Below, piece by piece: positions 41,080 to 41,307 of a DNA stretch of 64,000 bases. The DNA comes from the human T2T-CHM13v2.0 reference genome, Homo sapiens. The DNA lies in NCBI RefSeq assembly GCF_009914755.1, contig NC_060929.1; one strand, written 5' to 3'. Each line of letters opens with the position of its first letter. Positions within the stretch are counted from its first letter, which is position 1. A model generated the notes under the pieces. The model made no database searches. It had not been told where the DNA came from and saw only the letters and a list, made by a program, of their open reading frames with translations. Position numbers and translations under genes: made by a program.

Positions 41080-41307
41080 CTCTATTTTCTTGTTATAACT
41101 TACTGGGTGACAGAAGAAAAAACAAACAAACAAAAAACCCTTACAACTCCAGAGCTCTTCAAAAGCATAACTCTGTTAGCTTCTAATTTGAATATTACCA
41201 AAAGGAAGACTACCTGATGGAGAGCCACGTCTGTGACCCAATAATTCCCATCTTTATCTATACTCAAGCCATGTGGCAAGTAAAACCTGCAAAATAAAAA
41301 TATTTGT
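41080..41307 (-). repeat. 228-bp inverted duplicate of 35158-35385 (whole 73-nt PAM exon plus flanking intron)
   Basis: Manual reverse complement shows one mismatch; the exon copy maps to 41214-41286 with AG/GT intact on the minus strand. Confidence 0.97.

What the first reader, a model, noticed from the sequence alone, without database searches (positions are those of the whole stretch)
41080..41307. Near-perfect inverted copy of a whole PAM exon, with both splice sites, inside a downstream intron of the same gene
Seen: 41080-41307 is the reverse complement of 35158-35385 (228 bp, one mismatch by eye). The donor covers 21 nt of acceptor-side intron, the full 73-nt exon and 134 nt of donor-side intron. 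The copy interrupts an old L1 and is far less diverged than its host, so it is younger. Established: the exon encodes a PAL metal-ligand His (rat H585), and 73 nt is not a multiple of 3. Inference: the pre-mRNA contains its own antisense strand to this exon about 5.7 kb downstream. A 228-bp duplex could mask both splice sites, causing skipping, frameshift and NMD, or serve as an editing-complementary sequence for ADAR recoding of the exon. That would be a lineage-specific cis-antisense control on lyase activity. Fast co-transcriptional splicing could make it inert.
Basis: partly seen in the sequence, partly recalled or inferred. Interest (0 to 1): 0.85.

Follow-up and report, generated by a model that had tools for sequence, protein, structure and literature searches.

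The report
Inverted PAM exon copy in intron
A 228-base piece of the PAM gene holding one whole exon was copied backwards into a later intron of the same gene, most likely by a DNA replication or repair slip, and it looks like a young scar rather than a proven control switch.

Summary
41080-41307 is the reverse complement of 35158-35385: 228 nt with one mismatch. It covers 21 nt of intron, the 73-nt exon and 134 nt of intron. These are the only two copies in the 3.1-Gb assembly.

The copy lies in the 3' end of an antisense LINE-1. It has a 14-15-nt target-site duplication and a 9-nt filler of unclear origin, and no poly(A). It sits at the apex of a 16-bp-stem palindrome. One arm of that palindrome is absent from 29 of 29 related L1 copies examined.

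A second inverted, cis-templated insertion lies in another PAM intron (104 nt, 2 mismatches, donor 658 nt away).

My best reading is local DNA template switching at a fragile hairpin. A patch copied from nascent RNA is the main rival. One mismatch dates the event to about 4 My (95% interval 0.1-24 My, with a recalled mutation rate). No primate or other human assembly was available, so lineage specificity is untested.

The pre-mRNA can form a 228-bp duplex (cofold -406 kcal/mol). No function was found. PAM has no entry in a GTEx-wide recoding census, and I found no circRNA or editing report. The regulatory reading remains possible but unsupported.

The parts
35158..35385 (+). Donor segment: 21 nt of the acceptor-side intron, the 73-nt exon, and 134 nt of the donor-side intron
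   Evidence: the hub's exon table
35179..35251 (+). PAM 73-nt exon. It is the 4th of the 12 window exons, which makes it exon 18 of 26 in NM_001177306.2 by my count. It encodes residues 581-604, including His585. Its donor site CAG|GTAGTC looks weak by eye.
41080..41307 (-). Inverted copy of the donor, 228 nt with 1 mismatch at 41141. It lies in the 7467-nt intron between exons 39786-39901 and 47369-47468, 1178 nt after the upstream exon.
41214..41286 (-). Exact complement of the exon within the copy
41066..41079 (.). Target-site duplication, left copy: TGATTTTTTTAAAT. The C at 41080 could belong to it or to the insert.
   Evidence: read directly
41317..41330 (.). Target-site duplication, right copy, plus C at 41331
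   Evidence: read directly
41308..41316 (.). 9-nt filler TGTTTATTT of ambiguous origin. It could be a diverged extension of the duplication (22 of 25 matches). It could instead be donor homology continuing with one mismatch and one extra base; 402 of 20000 random fillers scored as well.
41056..41071 (.). Ancestral L1 arm of the 16-bp palindrome (TTATTCATTCTGATTT)
41327..41342 (.). Added palindrome arm (AAATCAGAATGAATAA), the reverse complement of 41056-41071. It is absent from 29 of 29 related L1 copies.
40930..41079 (-). Tested part of the host LINE-1 3' region, antisense to PAM. The L1 continues to the right of the insert.
36827..39901 (+). Three exons (211 + 201 + 116 = 528 nt, in frame) enclosed by the two arms. 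This is the stretch a back-splice or an arm-to-arm inversion would affect.
   Evidence: for geometry only; no evidence that either product exists
30931..31037 (.). Second event of the same kind. This insert into another high-copy repeat has a core, 30936-31039, that is the reverse complement of 31698-31801 (104 nt, 2 mismatches).

Best explanation
This is a young structural mutation: a cis-templated, inverted insertion. I infer three steps. First, an L1 inserted antisense in the intron. Second, a short-range template switch added a 16-nt reverse-complement arm, making a hairpin-forming palindrome. Third, a stalled fork or break at the hairpin apex was repaired by copying 228 nt from the opposite strand 5.7 kb upstream. 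Synthesis then resumed 14-15 nt behind the point of departure, which left the flanking duplication and a 9-nt error-laden junction. At the RNA level the PAM pre-mRNA now carries a perfect antisense to the exon and its splice sites. The exon's flanking introns (2000 and 1575 nt) can be recognised and spliced before the antisense arm is transcribed about 5.9 kb later. I therefore expect the mature mRNA to be essentially unaffected. The likely residue is nuclear ADAR editing of the intronic arm(s) and rare by-products: skipping of the exon with NMD, or a 528-nt circle of the three enclosed exons. Shown: the anatomy, the uniqueness, the order of events and the second event. Inferred: the polymerase mechanism and the near-neutrality.
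For: - **Copy and junctions:**
- **Direction of copying:** the copy, not the exon segment, is flanked by the duplication and interrupts an L1.
- **Palindrome is local:** the added arm is in 0 of 29 related L1 copies, while 21 of 29 continue with the ordinary L1 sequence. A whole-assembly pattern search hit only this locus.
- **Hairpin strength:** the inferred empty site folds as a DNA hairpin of -14.9 kcal/mol, z = -7.6; 0 of 300 shuffles reached it.
- **Order of events:** the duplicated target contains the first 4-5 nt of the added arm. The palindrome therefore existed before the insertion (read).
- **Cis origin:** the donor is only 5.7 kb away, in cis and inverted. There is no poly(A) at either end.
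- **Second event:** another inverted cis insertion lies in the same gene, with its donor 658 nt away. It has a 5-nt filler that reads as a mini fold-back of its flank, 2-nt microhomology and no duplication. 19 of 19 relatives of its host repeat are uninterrupted.
- **Literature on mechanism:** template switching is reported to create hairpins and inverted patches (PMC5453318, PMC7954356, PMC8794818; search listing and abstract starts only).
- **Near-neutrality:** PAM is absent from the GTEx recoding census tables, 0 against 52 for GRIA2. Only normal RT-PCR product was seen in four control RNAs (passage).
Against: - A clean 14-15-nt target duplication is a hallmark of L1-endonuclease insertion rather than of template switching, and the target contains TTTTTTT/AAA (class 1 features in PMC5110952).
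- Microhomology is only 1 nt at one junction.
- No outgroup or empty allele was available, so the order of events and the age rest on this one sequence.
- Neutrality rests on absence of evidence. The census kept uniquely mapped reads and applied a similarity filter (passages). It would miss hyper-edited or NMD-degraded transcripts.
- The RT-PCR forward primer appears, from exon sizes, to lie in this very exon. It could not detect skipping of that exon.
Confidence: 0.5

Rival explanations
1. The origin was RNA-templated. A fragment of nascent, unspliced PAM pre-mRNA, possibly a splicing intermediate, was reverse-transcribed (L1 ORF2p is the usual suspect) and used to patch a nick or break a few kb downstream on the same chromatin. 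This would be a templated sequence insertion with class 1-like target duplication. The functional outcome is as in the best explanation.
For: - The target duplication is at least 5 bp, and the target contains a T-run/A junction resembling the L1 endonuclease site. Both are class 1 features in PMC5110952 (sections read; junctions).
- The insert length lies within the 73-414 bp range reported for experimental insertions.
- The insert is transcribed sequence from a gene being transcribed at that very locus.
- Clean homology begins 2 nt after a TTAAC motif at 35153-35157, 23 nt upstream of the exon. That is a plausible branch point where reverse transcriptase would stall. The motif consensus is recalled, not tested.
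- Junction errors beyond that point fit read-through; 402 of 20000 random fillers scored as well.
Against: - There is no poly(A) tail at either end, and the junction is 4 nt off the T/A boundary.
- For an RNA-mediated insertion landing 'seemingly at random' (abstract), a donor 5.7 kb away would be an extreme coincidence unless nascent RNA acts in cis.
- The second event, 658 nt from its donor with no duplication and a fold-back filler, looks DNA-based.
- The branch-point match is post hoc.
Confidence: 0.25
2. Whatever its origin, the copy acts as a cis-antisense element of physiological weight. Duplex formation would mask the exon's splice sites, causing skipping, frameshift and NMD. It could also serve as an editing-complementary sequence for ADAR recoding, or drive circularisation of the three enclosed exons. 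Any of these would tune lyase output.
For: - The predicted duplex is very stable: -406 kcal/mol for 228 bp, against -51 and -36 for the arms alone, and -141 for the 73-bp exon part alone.
- The exon has 19 adenosines, and 16 of the 19 possible A-to-G changes are non-synonymous, including H585R.
- The exon is short, and its donor site departs from consensus at +4 to +6.
- The antisense arm sits early in a 7.5-kb intron, so it persists while about 6 kb more is transcribed.
- Exon-intron pairing is said to underlie most exonic editing in humans (PMC7006430 discussion passage).
- Inverted repeats in transcripts can lower expression through Pol II (PMC5080714 abstract).
Against: - No PAM recoding site appears in the GTEx census tables.
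- Searches found no report of PAM editing, a PAM circRNA or this repeat.
- The RefSeq exon table shows no alternative exon at the copy.
- Control RNAs spliced normally downstream of the exon.
- Splice-site recognition should precede transcription of the antisense arm (recalled kinetics, not tested).
- Intronic inverted repeats are common and mostly inert.
Confidence: 0.12
3. The copy is an assembly artefact of this one assembly.
For: None found. Only one assembly could be examined.
Against: The insert has exact boundaries, a flanking 14-nt duplication, a filler and one base difference from its donor. These are the marks of a real, independently evolving locus. A chimeric read or a collapse would not create them.
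Confidence: 0.02

Closest known systems
Templated sequence insertions and insertion polymorphisms (TSI/TSIP; Onozawa and Aplan, PMC5110952)
   Same: A short patch of a few hundred bp was copied, not cut, from elsewhere in the genome into a break, leaving the donor intact. Like class 1, it has a target duplication and a T-run/A target. Like class 2, it has filler bases and minimal microhomology.
   Different: There is no poly(A) tail. The donor is 5.7 kb away in the same gene rather than at a distant locus. The site is the apex of a palindrome. It fits neither class fully.
Replication-based template switching (FoSTeS/MMBIR at kb scale; short-range template-switch mutations, PMC5453318 and PMC7954356)
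   Same: The template is nearby and the copy is inverted. Junctions are complex, with small fold-back copies. Template switching is reported to create perfect hairpins de novo (PMC8794818, PMC10710096). A second such event lies in the same gene.
   Different: The described short-range events span tens of bases; this patch is 228 nt from 5.7 kb away. A neat 14-15-nt flanking duplication is not a standard hallmark.
Editing-complementary sequences for ADAR (for example GRIA2 Q/R; recalled)
   Same: An intronic sequence downstream in the same pre-mRNA is complementary to a coding exon.
   Different: Known ECS duplexes are short, imperfect, close to the exon and conserved, and their editing is documented. 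This one is perfect, long and 5.7 kb away, and no editing of PAM was found.
Intronic complementary repeats that promote exon circularisation or skipping (inverted Alu pairs, the Sry inverted repeats; recalled)
   Same: The 134-nt intronic part of the left arm and the right arm lie in introns flanking three exons (528 nt), the geometry that favours back-splicing.
   Different: One arm also contains an exon and its splice sites. No back-splice evidence was found.
Inverted low-copy repeats that mediate recurrent inversions (for example F8 int22h; recalled)
   Same: Near-identical inverted arms flank exons. Recombination between them would invert three exons and leave an in-frame 176-codon loss in the lyase domain.
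   Different: The arms are only 228 bp, against kilobases in the known cases. No inversion allele is known to me or was tested.

Membership tests
TSIP class 1 (L1 ORF2p-mediated templated insertion) | Target-site duplication of at least 5 bp | tested here: met
   A 14-nt exact direct repeat lies at 41066-41079 and 41317-41330, 15 nt if the shared C is counted. Definition from PMC5110952.
TSIP class 1 (L1 ORF2p-mediated templated insertion) | Untemplated poly(A) of 10-40 A at the 3' junction | tested here: not met
   There is no A-run or T-run between the insert and the duplication at either end. The junctions read AAAT|CTCT and TTGT|TGTTTATTT|TGAT.
TSIP class 1 (L1 ORF2p-mediated templated insertion) | Polyadenylation signal 10-20 nt upstream of the tail | tested here: inconclusive
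   AATAAA lies at 41293-41298 on the + strand, 9 nt before the end of the copy. There is no tail, and that orientation would need an antisense PAM transcript.
TSIP class 1 (L1 ORF2p-mediated templated insertion) | Insertion at a 5'-TTTT/A-3' site | tested here: inconclusive
   The duplicated target contains TTTTTTT/AAAT, but the insert joins 4 nt beyond that boundary.
TSIP class 2 (break patch) | No target duplication; end-joining marks such as microhomology, filler or microdeletion | tested here: not met
   A duplication is present. A 9-nt filler and 1-nt microhomology are also present. The second event at 30931-31037 does fit class 2, with no duplication, a 5-nt filler and 2-nt microhomology.
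Replicative template switching (FoSTeS/MMBIR type) | Template nearby in cis, often inverted | tested here: met
   The donor is 5694 nt away and inverted. The second event's donor is 658 nt away and inverted.
Replicative template switching (FoSTeS/MMBIR type) | Microhomology at the switch points | tested here: inconclusive
   There is 1 nt (C) at the left junction. The right junction is obscured by the 9-nt filler.
Replicative template switching (FoSTeS/MMBIR type) | Several switches or local fold-back copies at one site | tested here: met
   A 16-nt fold-back arm is absent from 29 of 29 related L1 copies. However, the duplication shows it predates the 228-nt insert. A mini fold-back filler occurs in the second event.
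ADAR editing-complementary sequence | Intronic complement of a coding exon in the same pre-mRNA | tested here: met
   41214-41286 is the exact complement of exon 35179-35251.
ADAR editing-complementary sequence | Documented A-to-I editing of the paired exon | tested here: not met
   PAM has 0 entries and GRIA2 has 52 in the held supplementary tables of PMC8897444. REDIportal and raw RNA-seq could not be queried.
ADAR editing-complementary sequence | Evolutionary conservation of the pairing | not testable with these tools
   No other vertebrate or primate genome was on hand. The near-identity points to a recent origin.
Circularising intronic complementary sequences | Complementary arms in the introns on both sides of the circularised exons | tested here: met
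   35252-35385 lies 1441 nt upstream of exon 36827. 41080-41307 lies 1178 nt downstream of exon 39901.
Circularising intronic complementary sequences | Observed back-splice junction | not testable with these tools
   No RNA data were available. Searches found no PAM circRNA paper. The one 'circPAM' hit was a misprint for circPSMA1.

The most novel reading that the evidence does not exclude
The insertion is a newly born editing-complementary or antisense element restricted to apes or humans. In tissues with slow splicing or high ADAR, a fraction of PAM transcripts would form the exon-intron duplex. They would then be hyper-edited (16 possible amino-acid changes, including His585 to Arg) or lose the 73-nt exon and be degraded, which would trim lyase output. 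The same arms might drive a 528-nt circle of the three enclosed exons. At the DNA level they might seed recurrent inversions giving an in-frame 176-codon lyase deletion. It would be a caught-in-the-act example of how an ECS can arise in one step by inverted duplication of its exon.
Probability: 0.1. Interest if true: 0.8.

Novelty: new member of a known kind. Interest (0 to 1): 0.4.

Why it matters
PAM is the only enzyme that amidates peptide hormones, and variants that reduce its function are linked to pituitary disease in the paper read. A perfect built-in antisense to a catalytic exon is therefore worth one look in public RNA-seq and population data.

As it stands, the locus is a clean natural example of how template switching at a self-made hairpin can move an exon-sized patch a few kb. 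A second, independent example lies in the same gene, which suggests such cis inverted patches are not rare.

It is also a practical warning. Reads from the exon and its flanks can map to two places, and any pipeline that filters near-duplicates may mask this exon.

If the copy proves polymorphic or human-specific, it gives a natural experiment on whether long exon-intron duplexes matter in vivo.

Tried and rejected
- **Pfam on the window's L1 flanks.** 12 stop-to-stop pieces on both strands gave 0 hits. 3 further minus-strand pieces also gave 0.
- **Wrong side of four related repeat copies.** I first assumed the L1 was in the + orientation and extended four relatives on the wrong side. 22 pieces gave 0 Pfam hits. 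After reversing the orientation, 3 of 16 pieces from 6 relatives hit L1 domains. One of these, Exo_endo_phos, scored 23.3 bits, below its 24.5 cutoff.
- **Canonical L1 retrotransposition of the fragment.** Rejected as such because there is no poly(A) and the junction is off the T/A boundary.
- **One complex event making both the palindrome and the insert.** Judged less likely because the duplicated target already contains 4-5 nt of the added arm.
- **Origin of the 9-nt filler.** Two readings were tried: an extension of the duplication (22 of 25 matches) and an extension of donor homology (402 of 20000 random fillers as good). Neither is decisive, and they exclude each other.
- **Literature.** Searches for circPAM, PAM editing and PAM inverted repeats gave nothing relevant. 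In one search only the best 15 of 5,894 papers were listed, so that search is not exhaustive.
- **Barak et al. (PMC7006430).** PAM has 0 mentions in the 3 held supplementary files, but their list covers only repeats over 300 bp, so this 228-bp pair would not qualify.
- **His585 as a zinc ligand.** Not confirmed in the library.

Full report
**1. The observation**

Reading both places, a repeat search and a base-by-base comparison agree. Window 41080-41307 is the reverse complement of 35158-35385 over 228 nt, with one mismatch: 35324 T against 41141 T, which reads A in the sense orientation. Homology ends abruptly on both sides.

The donor covers 21 nt of intron, the 73-nt exon 35179-35251 and 134 nt of intron. 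The exon and both splice sites are identical in the copy, and the exon complement lies at 41214-41286. A search of the whole 3.1-Gb assembly found only these two places.

Within the window, the other six inverted pairs of at least 100 nt are 77-84% complementary repeat-element pairs, apart from one 104-nt pair at 98% discussed in section 4.

The exon translates to FYLPHGLSIDKDGNYWVTDVALHQ. This aligns to residues 581-604 of a 976-residue PAM chain and to the rat lyase-domain structures 3fvz and 3fw0. Its first His is thus residue 585. That His585 binds zinc is recalled and was not found in the paper library.

By my count of the hub's table, the exon is exon 18 of 26 in NM_001177306.2, and the copy lies in intron 21.

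**2. What surrounds the copy**

The left flank is a high-copy repeat. One search found 1821 first-look candidates and scored 40. The 39 non-self matches are about 89-94% identical.

My first assumption about its orientation was wrong, and the first two Pfam rounds gave nothing. I then extended six relatives toward higher window coordinates and translated the opposite strand. This gave RVT_1 (1.6e-21), the L1 ORF1 dsRBD-like domain (2.3e-20) and a sub-threshold Exo_endo_phos hit, in 3 of 16 pieces.

The host is therefore the 3' region of a LINE-1 lying antisense to PAM. It is far more diverged from its relatives (6-11%) than the two arms are from each other (0.44%).

**3. Junction anatomy (read directly)**

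On the + strand the order is:

| Element | Coordinates |
|---|---|
| TGATTTTTTTAAAT | 41066-41079 |
| the copy | 41080-41307 |
| 9 nt TGTTTATTT | 41308-41316 |
| TGATTTTTTTAAAT again | 41317-41330 |

A C follows each copy of the repeat. This gives a 14-15-nt target-site duplication. There is no poly(A) or poly(T) at either junction.

The 9-nt filler is ambiguous. It can be read as a diverged extension of the duplication, with 22 of 25 matches. It can also be read as donor homology continuing with one mismatch and one extra base, a score reached by 402 of 20000 random fillers. The two readings exclude each other.

The duplicated target is the tip of a palindrome. 41056-41071 (TTATTCATTCTGATTT) and 41327-41342 (AAATCAGAATGAATAA) are exact reverse complements. 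I examined the 29 best related L1 copies for which loci were returned, out of the 39 scored.
- All 29 carry the first arm.
- None carries the second (0 of 29, allowing up to 3 errors).
- 21 of 29 continue instead with the ordinary L1 sequence.

A whole-assembly pattern search for the empty-site-like motif hit only this locus. The inferred empty site folds as a DNA hairpin of -14.9 kcal/mol, z = -7.6; 0 of 300 shuffles reached it.

The duplication contains the first 4-5 nt of the added arm, so the palindrome was already there when the 228-nt patch went in.

**4. A second event of the same kind**

30936-31039 is the reverse complement of 31698-31801, 658 nt downstream. The match is 104 nt with 2 mismatches. 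It interrupts another high-copy repeat (3780 candidates), and 19 of 19 relatives examined run straight across the insertion point.

Here there is no target duplication. There is a 2-nt microhomology and a 5-nt filler. Together with the next three bases, the filler is the reverse complement of the adjoining flank, a miniature fold-back.

Two inverted, cis-templated patches in one 64-kb window argue that this is a recurrent local mutational mode. That lowers the surprise of the first event, apart from its cargo.

**5. How it arose**

The donor is close, in cis and inverted. There is no poly(A). Fold-back micro-copies occur at both sites, and the first site is the apex of a hairpin. These features fit replication or repair template switching. 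Papers retrieved (listing and abstract starts only) report that such switching makes inverted patches and creates hairpins.

The neat duplication and the T-run/A target are, however, class 1 features of templated sequence insertions attributed to L1 ORF2p (PMC5110952, sections read). The 5' limit of clean homology also lies 2 nt after a branch-point-like TTAAC (consensus recalled). An origin from nascent PAM pre-mRNA acting in cis therefore stays a serious rival. I put DNA-level switching at about twice the odds of the RNA route.

**6. Age**

One difference in 228 nt gives about 4.4 My, with a 95% interval of 0.1-24 My. This uses a recalled rate of 0.5e-9 per site per year and assumes no gene conversion.
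- An age equal to the human-chimpanzee split is fully compatible (P = 0.56).
- An age of 28 My is unlikely (P = 0.012).
- The single difference could also have been made during the copying itself.

No primate or second human assembly was available. Lineage specificity, polymorphism and the artefact question could not be tested directly. The junction marks and the base difference make an artefact very unlikely.

**7. What it does**

The two arms would pair very stably:

| Structure | Predicted energy (kcal/mol) |
|---|---|
| Both arms, 228 bp cofold | -406 |
| Left arm alone | -51 |
| Right arm alone | -36 |
| Exon part alone, 73 bp | -141 |

The exon has 19 adenosines. 16 of the 19 possible A-to-G changes would alter the protein, including His585 to Arg. 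The arms also bracket three exons totalling 528 nt, in frame. That geometry favours back-splicing and, at the DNA level, inversion.

Against a real effect:
- The exon's own introns are 2000 and 1575 nt. The antisense arm is transcribed only after about 5.9 kb more. Splice-site recognition should come first (recalled kinetics).
- A GTEx-wide recoding census lists no PAM site, 0 against 52 mentions of GRIA2 in the held tables. Its filters could hide hyper-edited reads.
- Searches found no PAM circRNA or editing paper.
- An RT-PCR from this exon to five exons downstream showed only the normal band in four control blood RNAs (passage). The exon identity is inferred from sizes, and skipping of the exon itself could not have been seen.

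General context:
- Long near-perfect intronic duplexes exist in pre-mRNAs, and some are heavily edited (PMC7006430, passages).
- Inverted repeats can lower expression (PMC5080714, abstract).

I therefore commit to a near-neutral scar with, at most, nuclear editing of the arms and rare by-products. I give about 0.1 to a physiologically meaningful effect.

**8. Verdict**

It is best filed as a new instance of a known kind of mutation, with an unusual cargo. The regulatory idea is testable with public data but is currently unsupported.

Noticed in passing
window 30931-31037 (donor 31698-31801): A second young inverted cis-templated insertion lies in another PAM intron: 104 nt with 2 mismatches, donor 658 nt downstream. 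It interrupts a high-copy repeat that is uninterrupted in 19 of 19 relatives. It has no target duplication, 2-nt microhomology and a 5-nt fold-back-like filler.
   Followed up: yes
window 41056-41071 and 41327-41342: A 16-bp perfect palindrome in the L1 has one arm absent from 29 of 29 related L1 copies. It was probably made by an earlier short-range template switch. Next to it, CCATCATCC and a repeated ATTAACCA-like motif suggest further small local duplications that I did not resolve.
   Followed up: partly
window 41381-41435: A (CA)n microsatellite of 27.5 units inside the L1, just right of the insertion site.
   Followed up: no
window 35153-35157: A TTAAC motif 23 nt upstream of the exon is a plausible branch point. 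Clean homology of the copy starts 2 nt after it. This is a lead for an RNA (lariat-intermediate) template and was not tested.
   Followed up: no
window 35249-35257: The exon's donor site reads CAG|GTAGTC, which departs from the usual consensus at +4 to +6 (consensus recalled). With only 73 nt, the exon may be sensitive to structure.
   Followed up: no
window 35966-36145 with 42724-42903, and 33494-33606 with 38351-38463: Ordinary diverged inverted repeat pairs (78-79% complementary) also bracket exons in this stretch. They would compete with the perfect pair for pairing partners.
   Followed up: no
window 36827-39901: Recombination between the two 228-nt arms would invert three exons totalling 528 nt, leaving an in-frame 176-codon loss in the lyase domain. 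The same three exons are the predicted circle. This is geometry only; no evidence of either product exists.
   Followed up: partly
window 41293-41298: An AATAAA on the + strand lies 9 nt before the end of the copy. It is the reverse complement of the exon's polypyrimidine tract. It is a possible cryptic poly(A) signal inside the PAM intron and was not examined further.
   Followed up: no
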